From Eubacteriales bacterium (lineage in GTDB: Bacteria > Bacillota > Clostridia > Oscillospirales > CAG-272), in the NCBI GenBank assembly GCA_045531795.1, contig JAZSET010000092.1:1-52857 (forward strand): a DNA stretch of 52,857 nucleotides, given 5' to 3'. Positions 3,040 through 49,100 of this stretch are shown here, one piece after another; the stretch's first letter is position 1, and each line of letters opens with the position of its first letter. The notes under the pieces were generated by a model. The model saw only the letters and a program-made list of their open reading frames with translations. It was not told where the DNA came from and ran no database searches. The position numbers and the translations under genes were made by a program.

Positions 3040-4035
3040 ATGAACACTATACACATCATATTTACAGTATCACTTATAAGCGTTTTTCTCCTTACAGTGC
3101 TTTTTACAAGGCTTATAATCCCGAAGCTTAAAAGTATGAAGCTTGGTCAGACAATTCTTGAAATCGGTCCTCGCTGGCACAAGAGCAAAGAGGGTACTCC
3201 GACTATGGGCGGTGTTGCCTTTATATCGGCCTCGCTTCTTGTAGCTGCAGTTGTAATCGCCATAATGGTAACACTGCTTGATTACACCCTGCCGGCAACT
3301 CTTATCGTTACTTTGATTTTTGCCGCTGTAAACGGTGCTATCGGCGTAATTGACGATATGACAAAATTCAAAAATCACAGAAACGAAGGTCTCAGTGCAT
3401 CACAAAAGTTTTTACTTCAGCTTTTATCGGCAGGCATATACCTTTTTGTCCTTGTAAGACTCGGTGCAATTACAACAGTTATGCACATTCCGTTTACAAG
3501 CATCGGTATCGACCTTGGCTTTGTATATTATCCTGTAGCCCTCATAATAATAACAGGAATAATAAACAGCGTAAATCTTACAGACGGAATAGACGGACTT
3601 GCTTCAAGCGTTACAATGGTGGCAGGTGCTGCATTTGCAGTAATTTCATTCTTGATTGCAAATACAGACCTTACAGTTTTGTCCGCACTTGTCATAGGCG
3701 CGTGTCTCGGCTTTCTTACATATAATTTTTACCCCGCCCGTATATTTATGGGAGACACAGGCTCACTGTTTTTAGGTGCGCTTGTTGTGGGGTGTGCCTT
3801 TATAATGAATGATCCTTTAATATCTCTTATAATCGGCATCATATATGTTATAGAATCATTTTCAGTTATACTTCAGGTAGGCTCATTTAAACTTACTCAC
3901 AAAAGAATCTTTAAAATGAGTCCTATTCACCACCATTTTGAAAAATGTGGATGGAGTGAAATCAGAATTGTATCTGTCTTCTCTATTGTAACACTGATTG
4001 TATCAACAATTGCTGTTATTCTCACAATTATTTAA
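3040..4035 (+). CDS. mraY: Phospho-MurNAc-pentapeptide transferase
   Basis: KEGTPTMGG, IDD, NLTDGIDGL, FMGDTGS, PIHHHFE motifs; polytopic membrane protein. Confidence 0.96.
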   Translation: MNTIHIIFTVSLISVFLLTVLFTRLIIPKLKSMKLGQTILEIGPRWHKSKEGTPTMGGVAFISASLLVAAVVIAIMVTLLDYTLPATLIVTLIFAAVNGAIGVIDDMTKFKNHRNEGLSASQKFLLQLLSAGIYLFVLVRLGAITTVMHIPFTSIGIDLGFVYYPVALIIITGIINSVNLTDGIDGLASSVTMVAGAAFAVISFLIANTDLTVLSALVIGACLGFLTYNFYPARIFMGDTGSLFLGALVVGCAFIMNDPLISLIIGIIYVIESFSVILQVGSFKLTHKRIFKMSPIHHHFEKCGWSEIRIVSVFSIVTLIVSTIAVILTII

Positions 4036-4057
4036 AATAAAAAATCTGGAGTTTTCA

Positions 4058-5323: not shown

Positions 5324-5348
5324 CAAAATTTATATTTAAGAGGTCAAC

Positions 5349-6470
5349 ATGAGAGTAATCGTCACCGGCGGAGGAACAAGCGGACACGTAAATCCCGCTT
5401 TATCTATTGCCAACACAATAAAAAAGAATATCCCTGGTTCCGAAATCATTTTTGTAGGCACAAAACGCGGAATAGAAAACAAGCTTGTCCCGAATGAGGG
5501 TTATAAGCTCTGCCACGTTGAAGTACAAGGCATAAGGCGCTCGCTTTCGCTTTCCAATTTAAAAAGCCTTTACCTTGCCGCAGTTTCTCCCATAAAAGCA
5601 AAAAAGCTTATCCGTGAATTCAAACCCGATGTGGTTATAGGCACAGGCGGATATGTCTGCTGGCCTGTTATGAAAGCAGCGGCGGATATGAAAATCCCCA
5701 CCGTCCTTCACGAATCAAACTCCATTCCGGGCGTTGCAATAAAAATGCTTGCAAAATATGTTGACCGGATATTTGTTAACTTTGAAGCCACAACAAACAA
5801 ATTCTCAGAAGAATACAGGCACAAAGTTATGAGAGTGGGAAATCCTCTCAGAGGAGAGTTTTTAAGCCTTGATTATAATGAGGCAAGAAACAGACTCGGT
5901 ATCACGGGAAAATATGAAAAATTCATTCTCTCCTGCGGCGGAAGTATGGGTGCTGAAAAAATAAATGAATCAGTTCTTGAGCTTATGAAGAATTATACCT
6001 CAAAGCATCCAGAAATATTGCATCTTCACGCAACGGGAGCCATTGAATATGACGCTTCTATGCAAATGTACAGAAATTATTTTCTTGATAAATTTGACAA
6101 TATTAAAATAGTAGAGTACATTTATGATATGCCTCTGCAAATGGCAGCGGCTGACCTTGTTATAAACAGGGCCGGAGCAATGACACTGTCTGAACTTGCA
6201 GTTTTAAGAAAAAGTGCAATTCTGATCCCATCCCCTAATGTTACAGATAATCACCAGTATAAAAATGCCCGTGAGCTTGAACTTGCAGGAGCAGCTTCTC
6301 TTATCGAAGAAAAGGATCTTTGTGCAGAAAAACTCGAAAAAGAAGTAAATGCTCTGCTCTTTGGAAGCCGGGGACAGGAGCTTTCAAAGAATATATACTC
6401 CTTTGCTCTTCCCGATGCAGAAAGAGTAATTTTTGAAGAAATTATAAACCTCGTTAAAAATAAAAAGTAA
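5349..6470 (+). CDS. murG: Lipid I N-acetylglucosaminyltransferase
   Basis: GGGTSGHVNP, GTGGYV, HESN, GNPLR, GGSMGA, RAGAMT, HQYKNA motifs. Confidence 0.96.
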   Translation: MRVIVTGGGTSGHVNPALSIANTIKKNIPGSEIIFVGTKRGIENKLVPNEGYKLCHVEVQGIRRSLSLSNLKSLYLAAVSPIKAKKLIREFKPDVVIGTGGYVCWPVMKAAADMKIPTVLHESNSIPGVAIKMLAKYVDRIFVNFEATTNKFSEEYRHKVMRVGNPLRGEFLSLDYNEARNRLGITGKYEKFILSCGGSMGAEKINESVLELMKNYTSKHPEILHLHATGAIEYDASMQMYRNYFLDKFDNIKIVEYIYDMPLQMAAADLVINRAGAMTLSELAVLRKSAILIPSPNVTDNHQYKNARELELAGAASLIEEKDLCAEKLEKEVNALLFGSRGQELSKNIYSFALPDAERVIFEEIINLVKNKK

Positions 6471-34190: not shown

Positions 34191-35663
34191 TCAAGAAAGT
34201 TCAAAGTAGAATGTACTTCCCTTGCCCTTTTCGCTTATAACGCCGTATTTTGCTCCGTGAAGCTTTAGAATATTCTTTACAATTGAAAGTCCAAGCCCCG
34301 CACCTATATTTGCCCGCTTATGCACCTTGTCAACCTTGTAATATCTGTCCCAGATATACGGCAGATCTTCTTCTGCTATCCCCTCTCCTGTGTCACTTAC
34401 CTCAATTCTTACGGAATTGTTGTCATCACTTACAATCTGGCGGACAACGACTTTTTTATCTTCGCCCGTGTGGTTGATAGCATTGATAATAAGGTTGTAA
34501 ACCACCTGAAGCATTCGTGTTTCGTCTGCATAGACTATAGCATCGTGGTCACAGATAAACTCGATATTGTAACCGTCTGCCGCACTCATTCTGCCAACTC
34601 GCTCAATCACAGATTCAATGCTTTGTGTTAGCTTGAATTCACTCATCTTAAGGCTTTCAACATTTGAATCAAGCTTTGACAAATCCATAACATCACTTAC
34701 AAGCGATGTCAGCCTTTTTGACTCATCAACGATAATCTTCAGGTTATCGGAGGTCATTTCACCGGGAATATCCTGCATCATTTCAGCGTATCCCGAAATC
34801 ATTGTAAGCGGAGTACGAAGATCGTGCGATATGTTTGCAATAAGTTCCCTTTGGAACTTGTCTGTCTTTGAAAGCTCTTCTGCCGCATAATTGAGTGAAT
34901 TTGCAAGCTCGTTACTTTCCCTGTAAAGGCCGCCCTTAAAGTCAACACTGTAGTTACCCTGAGCAAGTTTTCTCGCATTTTGCGACATTCTTGTTATCGG
35001 TGCTGAGATTTGTCTCGCCATAAAATATGAAAAGACAACAGCAAAAACAAGTAAAATTGCCACAATAAACACCAGCTCAGTTTGCAGAGTTTTCTTTGTG
35101 GCACTTACAGGAGAGGTTATTGTATTAAGAAATACAACCATATTTTCTCCTCGTGCTTCACTGTATTCTACATATGTCAGCATAAGGCTTTCTCCCATAC
35201 CCTCATCACTCTTCGGCACATCGCCTCTGAAGTTCTGCGGATTGTATTTCCCGTTCTGGAAACCTCCTCTGGGCAAAACAAAGAAATCCTTACCCCCGTT
35301 TGAAAGAGCATCCGTATAGTGCTTAAACAGCACGTCTGAGGGCATATTATGAAGCATACATGCTCTGTTTATATGCGACTCCGCCACCTTTACTCCGTCA
35401 CCTGTATATATACTTATGCAAATATCATTTTCCTGTGATATTCTGGTCATAAGCGTTTCAATCTCATCACTGTCTATGTTGTTGCAGAGACTTGTCGCTC
35501 CTCTTGTCAGCTCAGCCCTTTTTACAGACTGATAAACCTCTTCAAGAAAAACCACCTGAAAAAGCCAGAGTATCAGTATCATCAAAATACAGAACAGCGA
35601 CATAAAGCCGATAATGCGCCACCTGAGTCCCGGTGTTTTTTCTTCATTACTGCGGTGTTTCAA
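34191..35663 (-). CDS. Sensor histidine kinase (2 TM, HAMP, HisKA, HATPase)
   Basis: SHDLRTPL H-box, NAINH N-box, DTGEGI, GLGLSIVK. Confidence 0.95.
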   Translation of the reverse strand: MKHRSNEEKTPGLRWRIIGFMSLFCILMILILWLFQVVFLEEVYQSVKRAELTRGATSLCNNIDSDEIETLMTRISQENDICISIYTGDGVKVAESHINRACMLHNMPSDVLFKHYTDALSNGGKDFFVLPRGGFQNGKYNPQNFRGDVPKSDEGMGESLMLTYVEYSEARGENMVVFLNTITSPVSATKKTLQTELVFIVAILLVFAVVFSYFMARQISAPITRMSQNARKLAQGNYSVDFKGGLYRESNELANSLNYAAEELSKTDKFQRELIANISHDLRTPLTMISGYAEMMQDIPGEMTSDNLKIIVDESKRLTSLVSDVMDLSKLDSNVESLKMSEFKLTQSIESVIERVGRMSAADGYNIEFICDHDAIVYADETRMLQVVYNLIINAINHTGEDKKVVVRQIVSDDNNSVRIEVSDTGEGIAEEDLPYIWDRYYKVDKVHKRANIGAGLGLSIVKNILKLHGAKYGVISEKGKGSTFYFELS

Positions 35664-36336
35664 AGCGATATCCTACCCCTCTGAGAGTTATTATAAATTT
35701 GCTGTACGGTCCGAGACTTTTTCTTAAAAGCTTGATATGTGTACCGAGGGTACGGTCATCTCCGTAAAAATCATATCCCCATACATCGCTGATAAGCTTT
35801 TCCCTTGAAAGCGCAATATTCCTGTTGCGAAGCAGATAGAAAAAGAGTTCATATTCCTTTGGCGACATTTCCGCACGTTTGCCGTCAACATATACAATGC
35901 GCGCAGTTACATCCACACGAAGCCCCTCAATTTCTATTATCTCGTTCTGAGTCACGGGCTCTCGGCTCTTCGACTTCTTGCTTCTGTTCATTATAGCATT
36001 TATTCTGAGCATAAGCTCCCGCGGAGAAAACGGCTTGACAACATAATCGTCAACACCTATCTCAAAGCTGTTTATTCTGTCATACTCCTCTGCCCTTGCA
36101 GAAAGCATTATTATAGGTACATCGGAAAATTTGCGTATCTCCCTGCAGGCAGAAAACCCATCAAGCTCAGGCATCATTATATCCATTATTACAATGTCAT
36201 ACTTGTTTTGCCTGCACTTTTCAAGCGCCTCCATACCGTTCTCCGCTTCCTCTACAGTATGTCCCTCAAAGATTGCATACTTGGAAACAAGCTTTCGTAT
36301 CATTTCTTCATCGTCAACAACAAGAAGCTTATACAA
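35647..36336 (-). CDS. OmpR family response regulator
   Basis: VVDDE, DIMMP, KPF receiver motifs; winged helix ending in RGVGY. Confidence 0.95.
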   Translation of the reverse strand: MYKLLVVDDEEMIRKLVSKYAIFEGHTVEEAENGMEALEKCRQNKYDIVIMDIMMPELDGFSACREIRKFSDVPIIMLSARAEEYDRINSFEIGVDDYVVKPFSPRELMLRINAIMNRSKKSKSREPVTQNEIIEIEGLRVDVTARIVYVDGKRAEMSPKEYELFFYLLRNRNIALSREKLISDVWGYDFYGDDRTLGTHIKLLRKSLGPYSKFIITLRGVGYRFETPQ

Positions 36337-36393
36337 ACAAACATCTCCTTAAATAAAATTCAAAAGAAACAGGGGTTTCCCCCTGTTTCCGGA

Positions 36394-37890
36394 TTAAAAT
36401 CCAAACCAGCTTGAAAAGGGAGAATTAAAGAATCCCTCTACACTCTTTTCCTCGGTTTTATCTGTATCTTCTTTGCTTTCACCGGGAATATATTCGTGAC
36501 ACTCCATTTCAACATCAACATACTTGCCGTCACGGACAACGGTAAGTATTATCTTGTCGCCAACCTTATGGTCTTTGAGTGCCGCCTTGATATCCTTTCC
36601 GTAGGTCACTTCAACACCGTCAACAGCTGTTACACGGTCACCAATCTTTAAGTTTTCATTATGCTCGCTTTCAAGAATATATACGCCGAGAGTATTTACC
36701 CTGTACATCATAGCAGTATAGGAATCACTGATATCCATATATGTGATACCAAGAGATACTCTGCCTCTTACATAACCGTAGTTTATGAGCTGTTCAACTA
36801 CCTGAGACGCCATATTGCTGGGAATAGCAAATCCGAGTCCCTCGATGCCCGAGCCCGAAGATTTTGCGTTTACTATACCTACAAGCTCTCCTGCAAGATT
36901 GAAAAGACCGCCTCCCGAGTTACCGGGATTTACAGCCGCATTTGTCTGCAAAAGAGTCATTTGTGTACCGTCAATTGTCACCTGACGGGCAAGTGCACTG
37001 ATAATACCGTTTGTCACCGTACCGCCAAGGCTTCCGAGAGGATTACCGATAGCAATAACCTCTTCGCCTACAACAAGCTTTGTACTGTCTCCTACAACTG
37101 CAGGAGTAAGGTTTTCAGCTTCCACCTTTAAAACAGCAAGGTCACTTTCCGCATCAAATCCGATTACCTCTGCAGGATATTTTGTGCCATCGGTTGTTGT
37201 GACTGTGACGGTAGAAGCACCCTCAATTACGTGATTGTTGGTTATAACATAACCATCTGCCGTGATAACAACACCGCTACCTGCACCTGTTGTAATATAC
37301 TGACTGAAAATACTGCTTGTAGATACCTTTTCGGTTCTGATTTCCACAACTGATCCTGAAACCTTCGCTGCAACCTCAGCATATGTTCCGGGTGTACCAA
37401 ATGTTGAATCAGTATTCTTTATTGAACCGGCTTCATTATATACACTCTTGTAAATAACCGATGCACTGTTTCTCTGATGCGCATCATTGATTCTGCCTGC
37501 AAGATATGTGCCGCCAAATGCCGCGAGTCCCGACAAAATCACGCATAATGCTGCTACAATTGCAACAGCTGCGTAAGGATGCTTTTTCTTCTCCTTTTTT
37601 GGAGCATCTGATACAGGTGTACCCGTTTGATTTGCCCTGTTTATATACACCTCTGTTCTGGGAGCAGTCTCGGTAATAACAGTTTCTTTTTCAGTGATTT
37701 CATCTGCAGTTAAATGATATGTTTTATCGCTTTCTTCACCCGTTGTCTCTTCTGAAATTTCCGCCGAAACTTCACAGGTCTCTGCTGATTCTTCATTCTC
37801 TGTAATAGGAGCTTTTGCATCAACAGTATTATTTTCAGTTATTTCTACTGTTTCTTCGTTTTCATTATCAAATACTTTATTTTCGTCCAT
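36394..37890 (-). CDS. htrA: HtrA-like serine protease with PDZ domain
   Basis: Acidic N-tail, TM, TNNHV, DLAVLK, GNSGG catalytic triad, PDZ. Confidence 0.9.
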   Translation of the reverse strand: MDENKVFDNENEETVEITENNTVDAKAPITENEESAETCEVSAEISEETTGEESDKTYHLTADEITEKETVITETAPRTEVYINRANQTGTPVSDAPKKEKKKHPYAAVAIVAALCVILSGLAAFGGTYLAGRINDAHQRNSASVIYKSVYNEAGSIKNTDSTFGTPGTYAEVAAKVSGSVVEIRTEKVSTSSIFSQYITTGAGSGVVITADGYVITNNHVIEGASTVTVTTTDGTKYPAEVIGFDAESDLAVLKVEAENLTPAVVGDSTKLVVGEEVIAIGNPLGSLGGTVTNGIISALARQVTIDGTQMTLLQTNAAVNPGNSGGGLFNLAGELVGIVNAKSSGSGIEGLGFAIPSNMASQVVEQLINYGYVRGRVSLGITYMDISDSYTAMMYRVNTLGVYILESEHNENLKIGDRVTAVDGVEVTYGKDIKAALKDHKVGDKIILTVVRDGKYVDVEMECHEYIPGESKEDTDKTEEKSVEGFFNSPFSSWFGF

Positions 37891-39029: not shown

Positions 39030-40673
39030 ATGGCAAAAACAAAAATTACTATGGAGAACATATCTGAGTTCCTTAATTCTTTGCCATATACGCAATTTAA
39101 AGCGCTGGTCGAGAATTATGCGGAGTGCAATCAAAACAATTTTGACAAAGAAATGAAGCGTCTTGTTACAATGGACCTTCAAAAACGGTTAGAAGTCTTG
39201 AATATCAACTCTATTTGTCCTCAATGCGGTTCGAGTATTGTTGTAAAAAACGGTAAAAAGAGTACAGGCGTCCAAAAATACAAATGTGCCGAATGCAATC
39301 ACGAATTTACACGCTTTAGCGGAACCATTTTAGAGAAAACACGATGGCACTGGGAGGTCTGGATCAAAGTCTTAGAACAATTATTATCCTTCAAATCAAT
39401 TGAAGATACCGTTACTGTTTTGAAAAAAGACTATGGTTGTGTTGGCATTAACAAGAAAACGGTCTGGCTTTGGCGGCTGAAATTGATGCATGCATTAGCC
39501 GTTTATCCACTGCCCACACTGACAGGTGTTATTCAAATGGATGAAACTTTTATTAGAGAAGCTCAAAAAGGAAGCCGAAATCTGCAAAGCCCGCTTCCAA
39601 AACGCGAACGAAAGCCGCGTTACGCCCGCTCTACATCAGAAATGGGTACTATGGGACCGGAATTTGCTACAGTAGTTGCTGCCGTTGATAGTAGAGGCTA
39701 CTGTGTATGCAAAGTGAGCAGCATGGGAAAACTCACAGTAGAGCAACTTGTAGATTTTATCGACCCTTATATCGAAAATCCGTCGTATATTTGTAGCGAC
39801 GGAAATGGTGCTTACGATGAGTATTGCAGAATGTTTAATTATGTTCACTACATAAAACCTTCTGGGTACAAAGACATCCTAAAAAATGAAGGTTATGAAA
39901 CTGTTGAACACCCTGATACACCAGAAGGCAAGAAAATAGCTGCTGAGAACAAAAAAATATTGCAAAGATTATATAAGGATGATAAGATTGATCGAATCAG
40001 TAATCGAGGCATGATTCCTTATTCGGAATTTTTGGAACTTAAATCCAAGCACGGATTAAACCTGGCAAGTGTAGATGGACTTCACAAGAAAATTAAAAAT
40101 TTTATTCGTGATAATTGTTCCAACGTGAGCACTAAATACCTACCCGATTATATTGGATTTTTAACCTTTAGAACAAATTGGACCGTAAAACACGGAGAAA
40201 GACCAGTCTCACTAAAAGACGCAGAAGAAATCCTTACAGAAATACTCAAGTTGAAGGTTAATTACACTACAGTTGACGTTGCAAATCAAACGATTACTGT
40301 GCCTAAACCAACCGGAAGATACATTGGCATGTTAAAGGCAGCAACAGAAAGAGCAAGAATCGCAACACAAAATAAGTACTTCAAATTTAACGAAGAAGAT
40401 GGGGTAAGAACCTTCAACAAGCGAGATTATTTATTAGACCTTCCGGAATGCAAATTTTATGCCATTTGCAGAGAGTGTAAATTAGAACGAGGCTATAAAA
40501 AACTTTCCACGTGGACTGTTGCAAATATGCTTCTAAAACATCCTGATATTGATGATATAATTTACAGAACTATTGCAAACGATAGGCATAGCCCATTTAC
40601 AGAAGAAGATCTCGAGTATTTCGAAGCAGAAAAAAGAAAAGCCAAATATAAGTCAAAAACTCCGGCGGATTAA
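39030..40673 (+). CDS. IS1595-family transposase-like protein, unusually long (547 aa)
   Basis: CPQCG...CAEC zinc ribbon, HTH (KTVWLWRLKL), DETF, SDG, VDGLH..IK, VSTKYL..Y. Confidence 0.8.
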   Translation: MAKTKITMENISEFLNSLPYTQFKALVENYAECNQNNFDKEMKRLVTMDLQKRLEVLNINSICPQCGSSIVVKNGKKSTGVQKYKCAECNHEFTRFSGTILEKTRWHWEVWIKVLEQLLSFKSIEDTVTVLKKDYGCVGINKKTVWLWRLKLMHALAVYPLPTLTGVIQMDETFIREAQKGSRNLQSPLPKRERKPRYARSTSEMGTMGPEFATVVAAVDSRGYCVCKVSSMGKLTVEQLVDFIDPYIENPSYICSDGNGAYDEYCRMFNYVHYIKPSGYKDILKNEGYETVEHPDTPEGKKIAAENKKILQRLYKDDKIDRISNRGMIPYSEFLELKSKHGLNLASVDGLHKKIKNFIRDNCSNVSTKYLPDYIGFLTFRTNWTVKHGERPVSLKDAEEILTEILKLKVNYTTVDVANQTITVPKPTGRYIGMLKAATERARIATQNKYFKFNEEDGVRTFNKRDYLLDLPECKFYAICRECKLERGYKKLSTWTVANMLLKHPDIDDIIYRTIANDRHSPFTEEDLEYFEAEKRKAKYKSKTPAD

Positions 40674-40693
40674 TTTCCGTCGGAGCCTTTTTT
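40655..40693. terminator. Bidirectional terminator at the transposase 3' end
   Basis: AAAAACTCCGGCGGA/TCCGTCGGAG stem with T tails on both strands. Confidence 0.7.
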
Positions 40694-40761
40694 ATGCTTA
40701 AAAATCAATCTTTGATATCGCAAAATATTATTGAAACATCTTACATAATGAAGATGAAAAC

Positions 40762-40788
40762 TTACGCAAAATAGTTAATTTTGCGTAT
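40762..40788. repeat. Left inverted recombination site (IRL)
   Basis: TTACGCAAAATAGTTAATTTTGCGTAT: 10-bp palindromic arms around an asymmetric core; reverse complement matches 41806-41832 at 26/27. Confidence 0.88.
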
Positions 40789-40801
40789 AATTTAACGACT
40801 A

Positions 40802-40830
40802 ATTATACCATAAATCGACAGTTTTTACAA
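40802..40830 (-). promoter_or_regulatory. Outward-facing sigma-A promoter inside the invertible segment
   Basis: Minus strand TTGTAA-17 bp-TATAAT with extended TG; predicted +1 near 40795, just inside IRL. Confidence 0.7.
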
Positions 40831-40901
40831 TATTAGATTTGTAACATTTTATCGATTTCTGTCTGTTAGTATATATTAATTGCATATTAAGGAGGATTTC
40901 T

Positions 40902-41819
40902 ATGCTATTTTCAAATGAAATTATATCAAATTGGCTACAGAGTAAAGAGCCACAGGTAAAAAGATCATCGTATCTACAATATAAGCGAACGGCAGAAATA
41001 GTGATGCGAGAAACAGAAACAATTCACACTCTTGAAGAGTTAGACGGACAGCAATTATATGAATGTTTATCAGAAAGATACCGTACAAAAACAATTCGCA
41101 GTATTTTTACTACTGCGAACCAAATAATATTATTTGCTTATAAAAACGGTTATTTCAAAACCTTAAAAACTCTTTCATTCAAATCAAGAAACACACGCAA
41201 AAATACGGTTGAAGTACTGACCGTAAAAGAACAAACCATATTAACGGATTTTCTGATGAAGGATATGAATTCTTCAAAGTTTGGCGTGCTGCTTTGCCTT
41301 TATACCGGAATGCGTCTTGGGGAACTGTGCGGTTTGAGGTGGGAAGATTTCAATATAAAAAGAAAGAGTGTTTACATACGTCGAACCATTCAGCGCATAG
41401 GAGCAAAAGGCGAAAAATCCTATTTTTCAATAGATACACCCAAAACAGACAACTCCACAAGAGAAATACCTTTCCCACCACTGCTTCAAAACATCATTAT
41501 GAGCTGGTATAAGCAGCAAAGTAAAGAAAACTATGTTGCATCAGGTTGTTGTGATTTCGTGCAACCAAGAACGTATCAAAACCGCTTAAAAGCCTATTTT
41601 AAGCAGTGCGGATTGCCTCAATATCATTTTCATACGCTACGTCACACATTCGCCAGTAGGGCTGTAGAGTTGGGGTTTGATGTGAAATCTTTGAGCGAAA
41701 TTTTAGGACACGCCAGTATTAAAACCACGTTGGAATTATATACGCATCCGTCTTTAGAGTGCAAGGCAAAAGAAATGAAGAAGTTCTCTAAGTTCATAAA
41801 AAATCATACGCAAAATTAA
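40902..41819 (+). CDS. Tyrosine recombinase, probable invertase
   Basis: YTGMRLGE (R), PKT (K), HTLRH, LGH, LYTH (Y) catalytic set intact; stop codon lies inside IRR. Confidence 0.92.
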   Translation: MLFSNEIISNWLQSKEPQVKRSSYLQYKRTAEIVMRETETIHTLEELDGQQLYECLSERYRTKTIRSIFTTANQIILFAYKNGYFKTLKTLSFKSRNTRKNTVEVLTVKEQTILTDFLMKDMNSSKFGVLLCLYTGMRLGELCGLRWEDFNIKRKSVYIRRTIQRIGAKGEKSYFSIDTPKTDNSTREIPFPPLLQNIIMSWYKQQSKENYVASGCCDFVQPRTYQNRLKAYFKQCGLPQYHFHTLRHTFASRAVELGFDVKSLSEILGHASIKTTLELYTHPSLECKAKEMKKFSKFIKNHTQN

Positions 41820-41832
41820 CTATTTTACGTAA
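41806..41832. repeat. Right inverted recombination site (IRR)
   Basis: ATACGCAAAATTAACTATTTTACGTAA, inverted copy of 40762-40788 with one mismatch. Confidence 0.88.
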
Positions 41833-41870
41833 ATTCACATTTTCAATTCAAATGCAAAGGAGAAATTCTT

Positions 41871-42596
41871 ATGGAACAGTTCTTTTTCAACAACACAGAG
41901 GCCCCTGCTATTGTAAATGCGAGCGAACATCACATGGCACTATTATTTTTACTTGACACATCAGGCTCGATGGGAGCTCAACTTATGGGTTCAAATTCAA
42001 CGCCGATAAACGAATTAAACAAAGCAATTAACCGTTTTAAGGCGGAAGTGTGTCAAGATGAGCACACAAAAGACATCCTTGACGTTGCAGTAGTGGAGTT
42101 TAACAGCGAATTCAGAGTTGTTCAGGAGTTTTCTCCAATCGAATACTTAAAACCGGTTGAGCTGCAAGCTAATGGAACTACATATCTTTGCGAACCATTG
42201 AACGTCGCTCTTGATATGGTAACCGAGCGTTCAAGATTTTATCGCAGATCAGGTGCGGAGCCTTACAAGCCTTGGATTGTTATTATTACCGACGGAATGG
42301 CTATGGATGATTCCAGATCTTTAAGCGCAGCAATTGAAAGAACCGCTGAAATGGTTAATCAAGAAAAGGTTGCTGTATGGTCCCTTGTTGTTGGAGATGC
42401 TACTGAAGATGAAAATGTGTTGCATCTGCTTCATCAAATATGCGGAAAGCGTGTTTTAAAGCTTGAGGGATATGATTTTTCCGGATTTTTGGATTGGGCT
42501 AATAAGAGTATGCGTGCGGTATCTCAAAGCTCTCCCGGCGACAAGGTGAAAGGTCAGCAGCTTCCGGACACGGTATCTATTGACGATTTGATGTAA
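41871..42596 (+). CDS. TerY-like vWA domain protein
   Basis: LLDTSGSM MIDAS, ANGTT, YKPWIVIITDG; first gene of a vWA-PP2C-kinase triad. Confidence 0.88.
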   Translation: MEQFFFNNTEAPAIVNASEHHMALLFLLDTSGSMGAQLMGSNSTPINELNKAINRFKAEVCQDEHTKDILDVAVVEFNSEFRVVQEFSPIEYLKPVELQANGTTYLCEPLNVALDMVTERSRFYRRSGAEPYKPWIVIITDGMAMDDSRSLSAAIERTAEMVNQEKVAVWSLVVGDATEDENVLHLLHQICGKRVLKLEGYDFSGFLDWANKSMRAVSQSSPGDKVKGQQLPDTVSIDDLM

Positions 42597-42610
42597 GGAG
42601 CCAGAACTTT

Positions 42611-43492
42611 ATGATTTACTCATATGGTGTTACTCAAACAGGACAGTACCACATAAAAAATAATACTGTATGTCAGGATTCTCATTGTATAAAAATTATT
42701 AATGAGCATTTTGCAATTGCTGCGGTAGCTGATGGTTTGGGTAGTGAAAAATATTCTGATATTGCATCTAAAATTGCCGCTGAGGATTCTGTAAAGTATT
42801 GTTGCGAGAATATTGCAGAAGACGATACCGAAACCGTGATTTTATCAGCAATTAAGGCCTCTTTTGAAATAGCGCTGAATAATATTCGAAAAACCGCACA
42901 AAACAATCAACACGATATTAATGAATACGATACAACACTTGCACTTGCAGTTTTTATCAACGGAAACGTATGCTTTGGTAATTCCGGAGACAGTGGAATA
43001 GTCGTTCTCAACAGTGATGGCACATACGAAAACTTGACAGAACAGCAACGCGACGAAAACGGTTGTGTATTCCCTCTTTATTTTGGGGAAGATAAATGGG
43101 TTTTTGGAAGCAAAAACAAAGTTGCAAGCGTACTACTTGCAACTGACGGTATTTATGAAACCTTATTCCCGTATTTACTGCGTGGAGAAGATGAAGAAAT
43201 GTATATAGCGCTTGCAAGATATTTGATGAGCGAAGAAAGTCTTGGTTTTGAGAATTCTGAAGAAGGACAAGTGCAAAAGCAGATGTATTCTTTTATAGAA
43301 AGCATTCCTGGCGATCAAGTATCAGACGATAAAACTGTTGTTGTTTTAGTCGATACATCTGTAAAGGTTGAAAAACAGCCTGATGAATATTATCAAGCTC
43401 CGGACTGGGCAGCCTTAAAAAAGAAGCGAGACGAGGAATATCGCCGTGCGGCATATCCGCATTTATTTGATGATTCTTCATCGGAAAAATAA
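42611..43492 (+). CDS. PP2C-family phosphatase (TerY-P type)
   Basis: G.YH......CQD, AVADGLGS, GDSG, LATDG, DDKT motifs. Confidence 0.88.
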   Translation: MIYSYGVTQTGQYHIKNNTVCQDSHCIKIINEHFAIAAVADGLGSEKYSDIASKIAAEDSVKYCCENIAEDDTETVILSAIKASFEIALNNIRKTAQNNQHDINEYDTTLALAVFINGNVCFGNSGDSGIVVLNSDGTYENLTEQQRDENGCVFPLYFGEDKWVFGSKNKVASVLLATDGIYETLFPYLLRGEDEEMYIALARYLMSEESLGFENSEEGQVQKQMYSFIESIPGDQVSDDKTVVVLVDTSVKVEKQPDEYYQAPDWAALKKKRDEEYRRAAYPHLFDDSSSEK

Positions 43493-43513: not shown

Positions 43514-46093
43514 ATGAAACTATACGGAACACAAGGAGAATATCAACTGCCGGATAAGCCTTTAGCACAAGGAGGCGAAGGCGCAATTTATACAGTTGAA
43601 AACAAAACAGATTTAGTCGCTAAGGTCTATCATCAAGAAAAACTTAATTCTGACCCGGAGTTGGAAAGCAAAATTAAGTATATGGTAAGCAACACGCCTA
43701 ACAAATCTGTACTCAACCAAATCGCCTGGCCATTGGACATTTTGTATGATGGCTCAAGACGTTTTATCGGATTTACAATGCCGAAACTTAACACCGACAC
43801 AGATTTGAAGACAATATACCCATACCCACCCAAAAAGGAACTGCCGATATCAAACGAACAAAAGCTCATTGTGGCTATAAATATTTGTATCGTAATTTCA
43901 GAAATACATAAGGCGGGATATATATTCGGTGATTTCAATCCTATGAACATAGGCGTAAATCTTACAACAGGGCACGTCGCTTTCTACGATACGGATTCTT
44001 ATCATTTTACCGATCCTAACACGGGACATACTTACCGCTGTGGAGTTGGTGCTGATGGATATATTGCTCCTGAACTCATACAGCATTGCCATGATTGCAA
44101 GTCGGATTATTTAAATGCTCCATTGCCGACCTTTACAAGAGAAACAGATGAGTTTGCTTTGGGCATTCATATATTTAAGTTGCTTATGAACGGATACACA
44201 CCGTTTAACGGCATAAAAGAGTGCGAAAGCGCTTCTCAATCTTCTCCCGGCACGGGTAATATTGCCATTGAAAGAGATAATTATTGTTTCAAACCCGGCA
44301 ACAAGCCTCAAAGTCCTGCTACTCCGGATTTGTCCAGCTTAACACCGGATATTCAATTCCTTTTCAAGAAAACATTCCTTGGCGGTAATAAAGACCCACA
44401 AAGCAGGGCCACACCCGAGGAATGGAAAGATGCTTTGATTGAATACAAAAATGAAATGAAGCAGTGTGCAAACAACCCGCTTCATCATTACTATGTAAAC
44501 AATTCCTCCTGTCCATATTGTGAAGCAGATAAGCGATATCAACAAAGTATTTCTCAGGCTTCACAAACATATAAAACAGGCACAAGCGGCAGCTCACAAT
44601 TCGGTTTTTCCAATCCCATAAACGTGCCGCCATCTTCCTCGAATCAATCATCGAATCAATATCAGCAGCCAAACAAAGCTCAAAAAACACGCAATCAGAT
44701 AATTCTTCGTGTATTGCTTTGGGTATTCTTTTGGCCCATTATGCTTTCAATAAAGATATATAAGACAAGGTGGCACGGATTAGTAAAGGCTATTGCAATT
44801 TATATGGTAATCTCAATGGGATTTAATATTTATGGCGGAGCGTTAGCGGGTGTAGTTGGAATACTCTCGCTTGGATCCGGTGACGGAAATTCAGCTTTTA
44901 GCAGTAATACCGTTATAGACGGCGATTATATGTTCACAAAGGAAGACGATAGTTATACCGTAAGCGTCGCTCCAAAGCGTGTATCCAATATTAAGGGTGA
45001 AATTGAAATTCCATCAAGCCACAAGGGCATTCCGGTAACAGGAATTTCAGAATACGCCTTTGAAAACTGCAGTAACATCACTTCTGTTGTTGTGCCGGAT
45101 TCGGTTGTTAGCATTGGAAAAGGAGCGTTTAAGGGCTGCGATAGCATTGAAAGTATTACACTGCCATTCATAGGCACTTCGGAAGATGCAACAAAAAACG
45201 AAGCATTATTCGGCAACATCTTTGGAGAAGAAGTTATACGAAAAGATGGCGAGTATGTATCATATGATGATACTGCTTTAAATAAAAGCCCGGTCGAAAT
45301 TCCGGGAGAAACTTGGCAGTATACTTGGCAAGAATATGGTGGAATAATCTCTGATACTTATACTGAATATTACTATTATTATATTCCGGATACGCTTTCC
45401 GAAATAATTATAACAAAACAAAGGAATATTCCGGACTATGCATTTAATGGTTGTGAAAATATCGAAAAAATAACTTATCTCGGTAAAGCAAAAGCGGGAG
45501 ATAAATTGACAGTTGGAGAGGCTGCTTTCCAAAATTGTCACAAGTTAACATTTGATGATACTCTCTACATTGGGGATGAGTATATGTCGATAGGTGACTA
45601 CGCCTATAAAAACTGTTACAACATTAAGGCTGTAGAGATATCGAGTTATGTGCGATATATTGGGTATGGGGCATTTAACGGATGTAATCAAATTGAGAAA
45701 ATCACATTGCCTTTTATCGGCACAGCCGAAGATGCAACCCGAAATAATGCTGTGTTTGGTAATATTTTTGGTGGAGAAGTTGTCCAAAAAGGCGAATATA
45801 TATCAACCCAAGATACGGCACTAAACAAAAAGCCAATAGAAATATCAGGAGAAACTTGGCAGTACACCTGGCAAGAATATGGCGGACTTGGTTCTGAGAC
45901 CTATACAAACTATTACTATTATTATATTCCTGACAGCTTGACAGAAGTTGAGGTTACAAAACAAGCAAAAATTCCGGACTACGGATTTAATGGTTGTAAA
46001 AATCTTGTTTCAATAGGTTTGCCTAACGGATATATACTTGGTGAATTTTCACTCCAAGATTGTCCGGCTATCATTACAGAAAGCACTAATTAA
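43514..46093 (+). CDS. TerY-P-type Ser/Thr kinase fused to zinc knuckle, TM segments and BspA-type LRRs
   Basis: QGGEG, VAKVY, AWP, GDFNPMN, DTDS, APE; C...H.Y....CPYC; two hydrophobic helices; IPDSVxSIGxxAFxGC-type repeats. Confidence 0.85.
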   Translation: MKLYGTQGEYQLPDKPLAQGGEGAIYTVENKTDLVAKVYHQEKLNSDPELESKIKYMVSNTPNKSVLNQIAWPLDILYDGSRRFIGFTMPKLNTDTDLKTIYPYPPKKELPISNEQKLIVAINICIVISEIHKAGYIFGDFNPMNIGVNLTTGHVAFYDTDSYHFTDPNTGHTYRCGVGADGYIAPELIQHCHDCKSDYLNAPLPTFTRETDEFALGIHIFKLLMNGYTPFNGIKECESASQSSPGTGNIAIERDNYCFKPGNKPQSPATPDLSSLTPDIQFLFKKTFLGGNKDPQSRATPEEWKDALIEYKNEMKQCANNPLHHYYVNNSSCPYCEADKRYQQSISQASQTYKTGTSGSSQFGFSNPINVPPSSSNQSSNQYQQPNKAQKTRNQIILRVLLWVFFWPIMLSIKIYKTRWHGLVKAIAIYMVISMGFNIYGGALAGVVGILSLGSGDGNSAFSSNTVIDGDYMFTKEDDSYTVSVAPKRVSNIKGEIEIPSSHKGIPVTGISEYAFENCSNITSVVVPDSVVSIGKGAFKGCDSIESITLPFIGTSEDATKNEALFGNIFGEEVIRKDGEYVSYDDTALNKSPVEIPGETWQYTWQEYGGIISDTYTEYYYYYIPDTLSEIIITKQRNIPDYAFNGCENIEKITYLGKAKAGDKLTVGEAAFQNCHKLTFDDTLYIGDEYMSIGDYAYKNCYNIKAVEISSYVRYIGYGAFNGCNQIEKITLPFIGTAEDATRNNAVFGNIFGGEVVQKGEYISTQDTALNKKPIEISGETWQYTWQEYGGLGSETYTNYYYYYIPDSLTEVEVTKQAKIPDYGFNGCKNLVSIGLPNGYILGEFSLQDCPAIITESTN

Positions 46094-46114: not shown

Positions 46115-49100
46115 ATGAACACAACACTGTCTGTATTTGAACAGAATCAACACCAAATGATAAGCGACGGACTTCTTGCCGCAGATAGATTGATAAATAA
46201 AAGTTACCTCATAAACTTGATAAACAGCAAGGTTTTACCGCTTGATGAAAATAAAAAAACGACATCTCCTATTCGTCTTTGCAAAATTGAAAAGCTTGTT
46301 TTTGACAAAGAGGAGAATATTAACGATAAACTTATCAGCGTATATAGTAGCTTATTGAATATCAATAGCACGGCCTTGCTGATTATCAAGGGAAACAAAG
46401 AAGAAGTGTCTTTCTATATCGGTGTTCGCTCAGACACAAACGCAGCTGTTGCAGAACTGATACTTGAAAAAAGCTTTCTCGGAAATTTTGCAGGTAGCAG
46501 TTTAAAGCGACTGAGAAATACCGATATCGCGAACGTTATGAATATATCTTCAGACAATACATCTAATTCGTCTAAGAATATATCTTGTGTAACAGTAGTT
46601 CCCTCTATGCGCGACGAAGATAAAAAGCAGTTTGTTCAAGGAATAGAAAAATTCATTGACACAATGCAAGGCGAATGCTATACGGCGGTTTGTATTGCCC
46701 AGCCGTTAAGTAAAGAAAACCTTGAGATCCGAAAGCGCAGCTTGGAGGAAATGTATTCTGCCCTTTCGCCGTACGCAAAAACAACGCTTACATACGGCGA
46801 CAATTACAGTAAAGCAGTTACTGCCGGTATGAGCGAAAGCTTTACTCAAGGTATAAATAACAGCATTTCAACATCCAATGGTATAAATAAAAGCACAAGC
46901 GCTTCAAATAATACAGGGCTTAATGTAGGTATTATGGGTTCAGGCTTTAATACCGGGCATTCAAAGAGCTACACAACAGGAACTTCTTGGACAAATTCGG
47001 TTACAAAAGGAACATCGAATTCCACATCACAAAGCACAAACTCATCCGAATCTGAAACAAACGGAACATCAAGAACCCTATCTTCAGAACATCAAAACAA
47101 GTCCGTAGCAATACTACTCGAAAAGATCGACCAACAGCTTAAGCGTTTTAAGGATTGCGAGGGCTTTGGAATTTGGGAGTGTGCTTCATACTTTATTGCC
47201 GATGATGTTCAAACGTCTGTTGTTGCGGCTAATACGTATAAAGCATTGATGCTCGGCGATAATACCTCTGTTGAGAATTCTTATGTCAATGTTTGGGGGC
47301 CTCAGGCAAATATCGAAAAAGACGCCGTAATTGAGTACATAAAATACGGCATTCATCCTATATTTGAAATTCAGTCCAATCACGGATATACATCTCAAAT
47401 CGTCACACCGGGCAACTACATAAGCGGAAAAGAGCTTCCGCTTTTGGTTGGCATACCGCATAAATCAGTTGCTGGTATTCCAATTATTTCTACTGCTGAA
47501 TTTGGAAGAAATGTATTTGTTCAAAACTCACGGCAAAACAGTAAAAAAATGCGTCTCGGCAGAGTGCATCATATGGGTAGAACCGAGTTTGAGCCGGTTG
47601 AACTCGACTTAAATAGCTTTACGTCTCATTGCTTTATAACCGGCTCTACCGGCTCTGGTAAATCAAATACGGTTTATTGTCTTCTTGAAAACTTCATGCA
47701 CAATAATATTCCGTTCTTGGTTATTGAGCCGGCAAAAGGCGAATATAAAGACGAATTTGGTGGCGTTGAAAATATAAATATTTTCACAACTTCACCTTCG
47801 GTGGGCAGACTTTTGAAACTAAATCCGTTTAGCTTCAACCAAAACATTCATATTCTCGAACATTTAGACAGGCTTATTGAGATATTCAATGCTTGTTGGG
47901 AAATGTATGCTGCAATGCCCGCAATACTTAAAGACGCCATTGAAAAAATATACATCAACAAAGGATGGGACTTATTAAACTCTGTTTACAGAGGTGATGG
48001 AGAGCCGACCTTTCCGACTTTTGACGATTTAATGCAGGTTCTGCCCCAAATTATAAATAATTCGGAGTATTCTGCCGATACCAAAGGAGACTATGTCGGT
48101 GCGCTTGTAACAAGAGTTTCTTCCCTGACAAATGGTATATCCGGTCAAATATTCTGCGATTGCTATGATATACCGGACACAACTCTGTTTGATGAGAATA
48201 CAATCATTGATTTAAGCCGAGTAGGCTCAAGCGAAACAAAATCCCTCATTATGGGTATCCTTGTCCTTAAACTTTCGGAATACAGAATGGCAACTGCAAA
48301 TTCTGCAAATTCCGGCTTAAGACATATCATCGTATTAGAGGAAGCACACAATTTGCTGAAAAAATCAACTCACGAATCAGCAGGAAGCAATGTTGTCGGC
48401 AAATCTGTCGAGATGATATGTAATAGTATCGCCGAAATGCGTACATACGGCGAAGGATTTATTATAGTTGACCAGTCCCCCACAGCAGTGGATATCGCAG
48501 CCATAAAAAACACAAACACAAAAATCGTTATGCGACTTCCGGAGAAAAGCGACTGCGATGTCGCAGGTAACGCTGTCGGTCTTGATGAAAACCAAATGAA
48601 AGAATTATCAAGACTTGAAACCGGAGTGGCGGTTGTTATGCAAAATAATTGGCTGCAAGCCGTTCTAACCCATATCGATGCTTTCTCAGGCTCGTATTAC
48701 TGCAAGGTTCCATCGGTATCATATGATTCGGTAAGACATTTACGTGGTGCCGCAATTCGCGAATTGATGGATCAATATATTGTTGAGCGTCAAATGAACT
48801 TGGAAAAACTGCACGGTGTAATAGATAGCATTGAAATAGCACCCCACAAAAAGCAAGAAATGAAGTGTTGTTTACAACAGGTATTCAATAGACTCGATAA
48901 AGGAAGAGATATTGATTTCTTCTGCGAAACTTTGTTAAACGTCTCAGGTGCAAAGTCACTCTTTGATATCATACAATCAACTGTAATTAAAATAAACGAT
49001 GGTGAAAAAGATACTTACACTGTTGATAGTGTCAAAGAATGGCAAGAAAGATTTTACAGCGGTATCAAAAAATATATTGATTTGCCTGACGAATATGTTT

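What the first reader, a model, noticed from the sequence alone, without database searches (positions are those of the whole stretch)
40762..41871. Self-inverting recombinase cassette: a promoter switch for the downstream conflict operon
Seen: 27-bp sites at 40762-88 and 41806-32 are inverted copies (26/27; 30/32 when extended), each with palindromic arms (TACGCAAAAT/ATTTTGCGTA in the left site) around an asymmetric core. Between them lie the whole tyrosine recombinase gene and a TTGTAA-17-TATAAT extended promoter pointing outward through the left site into a bidirectional terminator. The recombinase stop codon falls within the site, so the protein is unchanged after flipping. Known: inverted arm-core-arm sites give inversion; the Salmonella hin segment has this layout with a serine enzyme, and fimS is a tyrosine-recombinase promoter switch. 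Inference: flipping would place the promoter ~70 bp before the vWA start, so the assembled state is OFF and the operon is phase-variable. Caveat: recombinase read-through could give basal expression.
Basis: partly seen in the sequence, partly recalled or inferred. Interest (0 to 1): 0.92.

Follow-up and report, generated by a model that had tools for sequence, protein, structure and literature searches.

The report
Self-flipping recombinase-promoter switch before defence operon
A 1.07-kb DNA segment that carries its own recombinase gene and a strong outward promoter is found in both orientations in animal-gut samples, so it very likely works as an on/off switch for the neighbouring vWA-phosphatase-kinase-ATPase operon, and many gut Clostridia carry cassettes built the same way.

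Summary
Two 25-nt arm-spacer-arm sites (40763-40787, 41807-41831; 24/25 as inverted copies) occur nowhere else in the 1.84-Mb assembly. They bracket one tyrosine recombinase gene and a minus-strand TTGTAA-17-TGgTATAAT promoter.

Contigs from two independent gut metagenome studies (X1, X2) carry the exact inverted form. The promoter end is joined to the vWA gene and the left flank to the recombinase 3' end. The window and a 93%-identical MAG (L036) carry the other form.

The layout recurs in distant relatives (31-43% identity). 71 of 108 loci have flanking inverted repeats, which collapse to 51 distinct cassettes. 45 of the 51 have a near-consensus outward promoter just inside the upstream repeat; 8 of 51 have an inward one. 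Near-identical cassettes lie in either orientation between the same flanks. A cultured example is on Ruminococcus albus 7 pRUMAL02.

So this is a real, self-contained invertible promoter cassette. Orientation-dependent expression and switching within a clone are inferred, not shown. The kind is known. Six full-text searches found no description of this tyrosine-recombinase-inside variant.

The parts
40763..40787 (.). Left recombination site (IR-L): 10-nt arm, 5-nt asymmetric spacer AGTTA, 10-nt arm. Similarity to the right site extends over 40749-40793.
   Evidence: The joints of the inverted contigs fall here.
40802..40830 (-). Outward promoter P(out): TTGTAA, 17 nt, TGgTATAAT (extended -10). 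In this orientation it fires leftward through IR-L.
   Evidence: 10 of 12, TG yes. A matching promoter sits at the same place in 45 of 51 related cassettes, in the nearest relative L117 and in R. albus 7.
40902..41819 (+). Tyrosine recombinase gene, 305 aa, the only ORF inside the segment. Its stop codon lies in the spacer of IR-R.
   Evidence: PF00589, E 9e-25. R138, K181, H244, R247, H270 and Y280 are invariant in 25 homologues and align with Tn1549 Int 6emy.
41807..41831 (.). Right recombination site (IR-R), an inverted copy of IR-L (24/25). Similarity extends over 41801-41845.
   Evidence: and the joints.
40660..40685 (.). Two-way intrinsic terminator outside IR-L. It ends the IS1595-like gene and would stop P(out) transcripts in the assembled orientation.
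   Evidence: + strand.: -20.4 kcal/mol (+) and -18.7 kcal/mol (-), with U-runs on both strands.
41871..42596 (+). First gene of the controlled operon: a TerY-like vWA protein with a DxSxS MIDAS motif (D-T-S-G-S, read).
   Evidence: PF00092, E 1.7e-8. PADLOC TerY, E 3e-5.
42611..43492 (+). PP2C-type Ser/Thr phosphatase.
   Evidence: PF13672, E 1.2e-25.
43514..46093 (+). Protein-kinase-like domain fused to BspA-type leucine-rich repeats, 859 aa.
   Evidence: PF13306, E 8e-33. PF00069, E 2.7e-6, is below Pfam's cut-off. PADLOC PD-T4-6, E 6e-6.
46115..49198 (+). HerA/FtsK-type ATPase, 1027 aa.
   Evidence: PF01935, E 8e-17. PADLOC HerA, E 5e-23.
49198..50787 (+). Big_2 (bacterial Ig-like) domain protein, 529 aa, on the same strand with start overlapping the previous stop.
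   Evidence: PF02368, E 3e-16.
50833..52857 (+). Open-ended ORF that runs off the window, with a weak DUF6782 metallopeptidase-like match.
   Evidence: PF20573, E 7e-4, below cut-off.
39030..40673 (+). IS1595-family transposase-like gene that forms the left flank and converges on P(out).
   Evidence: NCBIfam NF033547, E 1.7e-25, above cut-off.

Best explanation
The segment 40763-41831 is a self-contained invertible promoter cassette.

The recombinase it encodes binds the two inverted arm-spacer-arm sites and exchanges strands within the identical asymmetric spacers. This flips the 1.07-kb segment.

In the assembled orientation (state A) the strong promoter P(out) fires leftward. Its transcript meets the IR-L hairpin and then a two-way terminator. 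The vWA-PP2C-kinase/LRR-HerA-Big_2 operon then receives at most read-through from the weakly promoted recombinase gene.

In the flipped orientation (state B) P(out) sits about 80 nt before the vWA start and drives the operon. The recombinase gene now points away.

Shown here: the sites, an intact catalytic set, both orientations in natural DNA, and conservation of the whole layout, outward promoter included, in distant relatives.

Inferred: that this recombinase is the enzyme that does it, that P(out) is active, that operon RNA follows orientation, and that switching is frequent within a clone.
For: (a) Inverted sites, unique in the genome, bracket the recombinase gene and the promoter.

(b) Inverted-form junctions appear in contigs of two independent studies:
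- X1 record 4 joins 43000..41828 (-) to 40767..41626 (+).
- X2 record 8 joins 40691..40767 (+) to 41826..41448 (-).
- X2 record 9 joins 42350..41828 (-) to 40767..40845 (+).
The longest exact stretch shared by the two sites is 26 nt, read. That is shorter than the 31-letter words the runs are indexed by (tool description), so I would not expect the repeat alone to create these joins. I did not check which word length Logan's assembler used.

(c) The window and L036 (93.2% identical over 8948 nt) carry the other form.

(d) The catalytic residues R138, K181, H244, R247, H270 and Y280 are present.

(e) Family level:
- 71 of 108 homologous loci have flanking inverted repeats scoring at least 17, and these collapse to 51 clusters.
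- 45 of 51 have an outward promoter scoring at least 10 within 220 nt inside IR-L. 11 of these are perfect TTGACA/TATAAT pairs. Only 8 of 51 have an inward one. In 29 of 51, at most 1 of 100 shuffles reaches the observed score.
- In all 20 cassettes inspected, the recombinase is the only ORF of 80 aa or more that lies wholly inside. In six a short ORF (80-149 aa) straddles a repeat.
- All 51 spacers are asymmetric.

(f) Near-identical cassettes sit in either orientation between the same flanks. There are 66 same-side and 66 opposite-side flank pairs. For example L050 against L081 is 99.2% and 98.4% identical over 1500 nt, reverse-complemented.

(g) The nearest relative, L117 (46% identity), keeps a similar site and an outward TTGATT-17-TGgTATAAT.

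(h) The IR-L hairpin in the leftward RNA folds at -11.3 kcal/mol, against -4.0 for the rightward IR-R. This fits termination on the left and read-through on the right.
Against: - There are no expression data. One search listed no RNA holder.
- The inverted forms lie in related strains (11 differences in 860 nt of the cassette, 49 in 1173 nt of the flank), not in the same clone. They show that inversion happened, not how often.
- No terminator separates the recombinase stop (41819) from the vWA start (41871). State A may therefore be low rather than OFF.
- Only 12 of 51 relatives have a terminator-like hairpin after the recombinase gene.
- In relatives the gene after IR-R is co-directional with the recombinase in 39 of 44 cases. 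This would also fit control by read-through.
- P(out) is a consensus match only. The scan found 10 promoter-like sites in the 2-kb region against 7.0 +/- 2.8 in shuffles, so a match on its own proves little.
- X2 shows unlike sequence at 40845, between P(out) and the recombinase gene. This is unexplained.
Confidence: 0.8

Rival explanations
1. The segment inverts, but control runs through the recombinase gene's own transcript. In state A the operon is co-transcribed with the recombinase (ON), and in state B it is cut off (OFF). This is the reverse of the first reader's polarity. P(out) would then serve something else, for example antisense control of the left flank.
For: The recombinase stop and the vWA start are 51 nt apart on one strand with no terminator. 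In relatives the right neighbour is co-directional in 39 of 44 cases, while the left neighbour points away in only 24 of 45. Only 12 of 51 have a terminator-like hairpin after the recombinase.
Against: No plus-strand promoter-like site lies before the recombinase gene in the window. Inward promoters scoring at least 10 occur in only 8 of 51 relatives, against 45 of 51 outward ones, 11 of them perfect consensus. Such conservation of a strong outward promoter 10-40 nt from the repeat is hard to explain if it is not the switched element.
Confidence: 0.1
2. The orientation difference is a rare, fixed strain polymorphism with no programmed regulatory role. It would have arisen from occasional recombination between the repeats, and the recombinase would be a leftover integrase.
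For: Both forms were seen only in different strains or samples. No within-clone data are available.
Against: The longest exact stretch shared by the repeats is 26 nt, read. The arm-spacer-arm anatomy with an asymmetric spacer is that of a recombinase site. The catalytic residues are intact. Both orientations recur in every multi-member cluster of relatives, with 66 and 66 flank pairs. In X5 the contigs end at 40788 and begin at 40762. From, those are the bases next to the first differences between the two forms at the left junction. This weakly hints that both forms coexist in that sample.
Confidence: 0.05
3. The cassette is primarily a mobile element, a small tyrosine-recombinase transposon with terminal inverted repeats, and its position before the operon is incidental.
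For: Related cassettes sit before very different genes, including regulators, capsule genes, pilus genes, BrxA and a double GTPase. This implies they moved at some time. An IS1595-like gene lies next to this one. A few relatives have a third site about 100 nt outside.
Against: The genome holds only this one copy of the site pair. In relatives the flanks stay the same while the cassette flips, which is inversion in place and not transposition. The layout includes a conserved outward promoter.
Confidence: 0.05

Closest known systems
Salmonella hin/H segment and the Gin/Cin/Pin invertible segments
   Same: The recombinase gene lies inside the segment it inverts, together with an outward promoter that switches a neighbouring operon. 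Sekulovic et al. 2018 (PMC5903667, passage read) cite Hin as the example of a recombinase 'occasionally within the invertible segment'.
   Different: Those enzymes are serine invertases that use a Fis-bound enhancer (recalled). This one is a tyrosine recombinase (PF00589) whose nearest solved relative is Tn1549 Int. The sites are 10-5-10 arm-spacer-arm sites.
fimS (FimB/FimE) of E. coli and the RecV-dependent switches of Clostridioides difficile
   Same: A tyrosine recombinase inverts a promoter-bearing element between short inverted repeats to give ON/OFF expression of a neighbouring operon (abstracts of PMC6083910 and PMC7446863 in the listings).
   Different: In those systems the element is short, about 150-300 nt (recalled), and the recombinase is encoded outside it or far away. 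Here the 1.07-kb element consists essentially of the recombinase gene plus the promoter. The recombinase gene's own orientation and transcriptional context therefore change with each flip.
Phase-variable Type I R-M hsdS 'epigenetic invertons' and pglX shufflons with a tyrosine recombinase between the repeats
   Same: A tyrosine recombinase gene lies within or beside the inverting DNA of a defence locus (PMC7672463 abstract; PMC9881135 passages).
   Different: Those inversions swap coding segments, with the repeats lying inside hsdS or pglX. Here the repeats are non-coding, apart from the last codons of the recombinase, and what is swapped is a promoter. There is no hsdS or pglX in the operon.
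TerY-P triad (vWA + PP2C + Ser/Thr kinase) conflict modules
   Same: The first three genes after the switch are a TerY-like vWA with a DxSxS motif, a PP2C phosphatase and a kinase. Passages of PMC11090510 define the triad and say that TerY-P-like modules act as stand-alone antiphage systems.
   Different: The kinase here is fused to BspA-type leucine-rich repeats, not to a zinc ribbon or an OB fold. It is followed by a 1027-aa HerA-like ATPase and a Big_2 protein. The matches to PADLOC TerY and PD-T4-6 are weak. Two searches found no report of phase-variable control of such a module.

Membership tests
Tyrosine site-specific recombinase (PF00589) | Catalytic-domain match above the curated threshold. 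| tested here: met
   87.8 bits against a cut-off of 27.1, E 9e-25.
Tyrosine site-specific recombinase (PF00589) | Catalytic residues R, K, H-x-x-R, H/W and the Tyr nucleophile. | tested here: met
   R138, K181, H244, R247, H270 and Y280 are invariant in 25 homologues. They align with the matching motifs of Tn1549 Int 6emy. Which positions are catalytic is recalled knowledge of the family.
Curated invertase or Xer families (NCBIfam XerC/D/A/S, FimB/E-type 'tyrosine-type DNA invertase') | Score above the family's curated cut-off. | tested here: not met
   The best match is 79.4 bits against a cut-off of 220 (XerA). The invertase model NF007370 gives 33.9 against 221. It is a generic tyrosine recombinase and not a member of a named invertase family.
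Invertible promoter switch (inverton) | A DNA segment bounded by inverted repeats. | tested here: met
Invertible promoter switch (inverton) | Both orientations exist in natural DNA, with junctions at the repeats. | tested here: met
   The inverted form is in X1 and X2. The other form is in the window and L036.
Invertible promoter switch (inverton) | Both orientations coexist within one clonal population (reversible switching). | tested here: inconclusive
   Only contigs were available. In X5 they end at 40788 and begin at 40762, next to the points where the two forms first differ. This is a weak hint. No raw reads were laid.
Invertible promoter switch (inverton) | A promoter inside the segment that faces a gene in one orientation only. 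| tested here: met
   A sequence match of 10 of 12 with TG, conserved in 45 of 51 relatives. Promoter activity itself cannot be tested with these tools.
Invertible promoter switch (inverton) | Expression of the neighbouring genes depends on orientation. | not testable with these tools
   No RNA holder was listed.
Hin/Gin-type invertible segment | A serine recombinase (resolvase/invertase fold). | tested here: not met
   The only Pfam match is PF00589.
Hin/Gin-type invertible segment | The recombinase gene lies inside the inverted segment. | tested here: met
fimS-type switch | The recombinase is encoded outside a short (about 0.3 kb) element. | tested here: not met
   The gene lies between the sites and the element spans 1069 nt.
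TerY-P triad | Adjacent vWA (with MIDAS), PP2C and Ser/Thr kinase genes. | tested here: met
   D-T-S-G-S is read. The kinase Pfam score of 27.4 is below its 31.7 cut-off.
TerY-P triad | The kinase is fused at its C-terminus to a zinc ribbon, or to an OB fold in the defence variant. | tested here: not met
   The C-terminal part is LRR_5 (E 8e-33). The definition comes from passages of PMC11090510.

The most novel reading that the evidence does not exclude
The window holds one member of a large and, as far as six full-text searches show, undescribed class of autonomous switch cassettes in gut Clostridia.

Each cassette is a 1.1-1.5-kb module made of one tyrosine recombinase gene and a near-consensus outward promoter, set between arm-spacer-arm sites. 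It flips in place and gates whatever lies beside it.

The right-hand neighbours seen here include regulators, capsule and pilus genes, BrxA, a double GTPase and HerA-type ATPases. In this window the neighbour is a TerY-P/HerA conflict operon.

The cassettes are longer than the elements that at least one inverton survey is tuned to. DeepInverton trained on sequences under 300 nt (PMC11602134). The class may therefore have been systematically missed, and phase variation of defence and surface loci in Clostridia may be much commoner than surveys report.
Probability: 0.45. Interest if true: 0.78.

Novelty: new variant of a known kind. Interest (0 to 1): 0.64.

Why it matters
Invertible promoters are the main known route to phase variation in gut Bacteroidales. 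Clostridia are reported to have few of them: a median of 3 invertons per genome in Firmicutes_A in the hCom2 survey (PMC11892184, passage read).

A self-contained recombinase-plus-promoter cassette that flips in natural populations, and that recurs before surface, regulatory and defence operons in many Clostridia, would change that picture.

It would also give a simple portable switch made of one gene, one promoter and two 25-nt sites.

For this locus it predicts that a TerY-P/HerA-type conflict system is expressed only in part of the population. That bears on the cost of such systems and on phage-host dynamics in animal guts.

A cultured strain with the same layout, Ruminococcus albus 7 pRUMAL02, makes the idea directly testable.

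Tried and rejected
- RNA evidence: one search listed no RNA holder, so expression could not be examined.
The genome-contig scan returned only L036. A scan of 400 genomes of the same family returned one closer relative, L117 at 46%.
- Metagenome scan: with the alignment A1 as query it returned only relatives at 43% identity or less. These turned out to be informative for the family layout.
- Third site between promoter and recombinase: this would have meant a short inverton with an adjacent recombinase. None was found in the window. The related cassettes searchable each showed only the two flanking sites, and five also had a third site outside the pair.
- Terminator insulation after the recombinase: it is not general (12 of 51).
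- Plasmid and phage collections: 7 and 6 records at 40% identity or less. The family is not mainly plasmid- or phage-borne in those collections. One hit, R. albus 7, was followed up.
- PADLOC: no model matched the recombinase, and the operon proteins gave only weak TerY and PD-T4-6 matches plus HerA matches.
- Literature: searches found no paper describing tyrosine-recombinase-inside promoter cassettes. One search returned only irrelevant papers. Supplementary tables of the inverton surveys (PMC11892184, PMC11602134, PMC9881135) were not open and could list such elements.
- Size limit of PhaseFinder: I could not confirm it from PMC11892184. My memory of a default limit of about 750 nt is recall only.
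- The many roughly 1.1-1.8-kb contigs among the homologues might reflect assembly breaks at the repeats. The collection's contigs are short anyway, so I did not use this.
- No structure prediction, complex prediction or representative search was run. None would have changed the reading.
Full report
**What is in the sequence**

The region 40749-41845 holds an inverted repeat with 45-nt arms, 87% complementary. Each site has two 10-nt arms that are palindromic to each other, around the 5-nt asymmetric spacer AGTTA / TAACT.

With up to five mismatches the site occurs nowhere else in the 172 contigs (1.84 Mb, 41% G+C) of the assembly. On the same ungapped score on which this pair scores 27, mismatched left and right zones of unrelated loci mostly score 8-12 (300 random pairs).

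Between the sites lie two features:
- One ORF, 40902-41819, 305 aa, a tyrosine recombinase (PF00589, E 9e-25).
- A minus-strand promoter-like site, TTGTAA-17-TATAAT preceded by TG, at 40830..40802.

No plus-strand promoter-like site precedes the recombinase gene. The recombinase stop codon is the first three bases of the right spacer, so exchange within the spacer leaves the protein unchanged.

Left of the element is a hairpin with U-runs on both strands (-20.4 and -18.7 kcal/mol), at the end of an IS1595-family transposase-like gene.

Right of the element, 51 nt after the recombinase stop and on the same strand, begins a tight gene row:
- a TerY-like vWA protein with a D-T-S-G-S motif
- a PP2C phosphatase
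- a kinase fused to BspA-type leucine-rich repeats
- a 1027-aa HerA-type ATPase
- a Big_2 protein
- an open-ended ORF

**Direct evidence of inversion**

No public run holds more than 0.34 of the sampled words of the stretch. The holders are animal gut and manure metagenomes. I laid Logan contigs of four of them on window:39800-43000.

X1 record 4 (3043 nt) runs along the minus strand from 43000 to 41828 and then continues on the plus strand from 40767 to 41626. The vWA side is therefore joined to the promoter end of the segment. This is the right-hand junction expected after flipping.

X2 holds both junctions. Record 9 shows the same right-hand join. Record 8 joins 40691-40767 (+) to 41826-41448 (-), which links the left flank to the recombinase 3' end. 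X3 gives figures identical to X2 and I count it as the same data.

The longest exact stretch shared by the two sites is 26 nt, read. That is shorter than the 31-letter words the runs are indexed by (tool description), so I would not expect the repeat alone to produce such joins. I did not check which word length Logan's assembler used. The joined pieces are also the two expected products, not a hairpin of one piece on itself.

The inverted-form contigs differ from the window by 11 of 860 letters in the cassette and 49 of 1173 in the flank. They are related strains, not the same clone.

A second assembly, L036 (a Lachnospiraceae MAG by its record title), is 93.2% identical over 8948 nt and collinear with the window. 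Each form is thus seen in two independent sources.

In X5 the contigs end at 40788 and begin at 40762. From the repeat arms, those are the bases next to the first differences between the two forms at the left junction. This weakly hints that both forms are present in that sample.

**The layout is a family trait**

I collected homologues of the recombinase from 551 related genomes and from metagenome contigs. For each I looked for the best inverted repeat between a zone up to 500 nt before the gene and a zone from 120 nt before to 220 nt after its stop.

Of 108 loci with room on both sides, 71 scored at least 17 (57 of 75 metagenome loci, 12 of 28 genome loci). These collapse to 51 clusters at 88% DNA identity.

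In all 20 cassettes inspected, the recombinase is the only ORF of 80 aa or more that lies wholly inside, and the span is 1.08-1.49 kb. In six of them a short ORF (80-149 aa) straddles a repeat. The sites have the same anatomy as here, with arms of about 8-13 nt around an asymmetric spacer. The spacer is 5 nt in 23 cassettes and 7 nt in 11, and all 51 are asymmetric.

Most telling is the promoter. In 45 of 51 clusters the first 220 nt inside the upstream repeat hold, on the outward-reading strand, a promoter scoring at least 10 on my scale. 11 are perfect TTGACA/TATAAT pairs. The -10 usually ends 10-40 nt from the repeat. Only 8 of 51 have an inward one of that score. In 29 of 51, at most 1 of 100 shuffles reaches the observed score.

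A FastTree of 100 of these proteins puts all 70 repeat-flanked ones, the window's included, in one clade of 91 (local support 93). The paralogues in the window's own genome (L002-L004) and a further clade (L027-L032) fall outside. None of those reaches a repeat score of 17; the highest is L030, at 15.

The nearest relative outside the species, L117 (46% identity), has a similar site (ACGCAAAGG-AGTTT-CCTTTGAGT) and an outward TTGATT-17-TGgTATAAT.

**Relatives also flip**

Where several metagenome assemblies hold near-identical cassettes, the flanks are as often swapped and reverse-complemented as not. There are 66 same-side and 66 opposite-side flank pairs.

For example, the left flank of L050 equals the reverse complement of the right flank of L081 (99.2% over 1500 nt), and the converse holds at 98.4%. 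The same is seen for L055 against L069, L060 against L079, L073 and L076, L066 against L068, and L076 against L087. The flanks stay and the cassette turns. This is inversion in place, not transposition.

**What the cassettes stand beside**

The gene after the downstream repeat is co-directional with the recombinase in 39 of 44 clusters. The gene before the upstream repeat points away in 24 of 45. Many cassettes therefore have outgoing genes on both sides and could toggle between two units.

The 38 right-hand neighbours are diverse:
- HTH and TetR regulators
- a NusG-like protein
- a sugar transferase and Wzz
- DUF7601 and signal-peptidase genes
- a cadherin-like protein
- BrxA
- a double GTPase
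- DUF87 and TrwB ATPases

The regulators apart, these are mostly surface or defence genes, the classes reported near invertons (PMC11892184, abstract).

A cultured example exists. On Ruminococcus albus 7 plasmid pRUMAL02 the integrase RUMAL_RS19675 is flanked by a perfect 20-nt inverted repeat and has an outward TTGACA-17-TATAAT just inside the upstream copy.

**How it most likely works**

The recombinase has the full catalytic set: R138, K181, H244, R247, H270 and Y280. It binds the four arms and exchanges strands in the identical asymmetric spacers. Because the sites are inverted, the outcome is inversion.

In state A (the window) P(out) fires leftward. Its RNA begins a few bases before IR-L, forms the IR-L hairpin (-11.3 kcal/mol, followed by a short U-run) and then meets the two-way terminator. 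In state B P(out) lies about 80 nt before the vWA start. The hairpin on that side is weak (-4.0 kcal/mol) and no terminator follows.

State B should therefore be ON. State A should be OFF or low, because read-through from the recombinase gene is not blocked in this member.

The sites, the enzyme's integrity, both orientations and the conservation are shown. Promoter activity, dependence of operon RNA on orientation and the switching rate are inferred.

**Rivals**

- Control by recombinase read-through, with the polarity reversed, fits the co-directional bias (39 of 44). It leaves the conserved strong outward promoter unexplained. I give it 0.10.
- A fixed strain polymorphism without function fits the lack of within-clone data. 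It does not fit the site anatomy, the intact enzyme or the recurrent both-way orientation in relatives. I give it 0.05.
- A transposon fits the diversity of neighbours over evolutionary time. It does not fit the constant flanks or the single copy per genome. I give it 0.05.

**Comparison with what is known**

The kind is known. [quoted passage not shown] In layout it works like hin, but with a tyrosine enzyme. It shares the enzyme class with fimS and the RecV switches, but there the recombinase is outside a short element. Tyrosine recombinase genes inside inverting DNA are known for hsdS and pglX shufflons, where coding segments, not promoters, are exchanged (PMC7672463 abstract; PMC9881135 passages).

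The recombinase falls below the cut-off of every curated Xer or invertase family in NCBIfam. Its nearest solved relative is the Tn1549 integrase (E 3e-14).

Six full-text searches found no description of this class. Supplementary tables of the surveys were closed and might list members. DeepInverton was trained on invertons under 300 nt (PMC11602134, passage), so elements of 1.1-1.5 kb lie outside what that model was trained on.

The downstream genes match the TerY-P triad as defined in PMC11090510 (passages), except that the kinase carries leucine-rich repeats instead of a zinc ribbon or OB fold. The PADLOC matches are weak.

**Verdict**

It is a new variant of a known kind, with a fair chance of representing a widespread class that has not been described. 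Interest 0.64.

Noticed in passing
window 40845 (runs X2/X3): In X2 the contig carrying the vWA-promoter junction runs on unlike the window after 40845, for 133 nt. Another contig enters the recombinase gene at 40845 after 30 unlike nt. That strain may have an insertion or a different sequence between P(out) and the recombinase gene. The same contig also diverges from the window beyond 42350.
   Followed up: no
window 39030-40673: A 547-aa IS1595-family transposase-like ORF (NF033547, E 1.7e-25) with an N-terminal zinc ribbon ends 90 nt before IR-L. At 547 aa it is much longer than the 215-position IS1595 model it matches. Whether it displaced a gene once served by P(out) is unknown.
   Followed up: partly
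L068 6079-6099; L103 4309-4330; L114 4320-4342; L013 2478-2500; L017 897-913: Five related cassettes have a third copy of the site about 100-120 nt outside one of the two flanking sites, in the same orientation as its neighbour. This could allow alternative inversions or small deletions.
   Followed up: no
L118 (NC_014825.1, R. albus 7 pRUMAL02) 3171-4256 and 5049-6128: Two paralogous integrase genes face each other about 800 nt apart. The first is flanked by the perfect 20-nt repeat with an outward consensus promoter. The 5' coding ends of the two genes are themselves similar as inverted copies (44 nt, 80%). The plasmid record has three matches to the query.
   Followed up: partly
related loci, e.g. 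L112, L050, L084, L090, L105: Many cassettes have genes pointing away on both sides. The promoter may therefore toggle between two alternative transcription units rather than between ON and OFF.
   Followed up: partly
window 40749-40762 and 41832-41845: The similarity between the two sites extends about 13 nt outward beyond the arms (9 of 13 matches, read). This might be an accessory binding region.
   Followed up: no
window 35647-37890 (minus strand): An OmpR-type response regulator (229 aa) and an HtrA-like trypsin/PDZ protease (498 aa) lie upstream. They look like ordinary housekeeping context.
   Followed up: no
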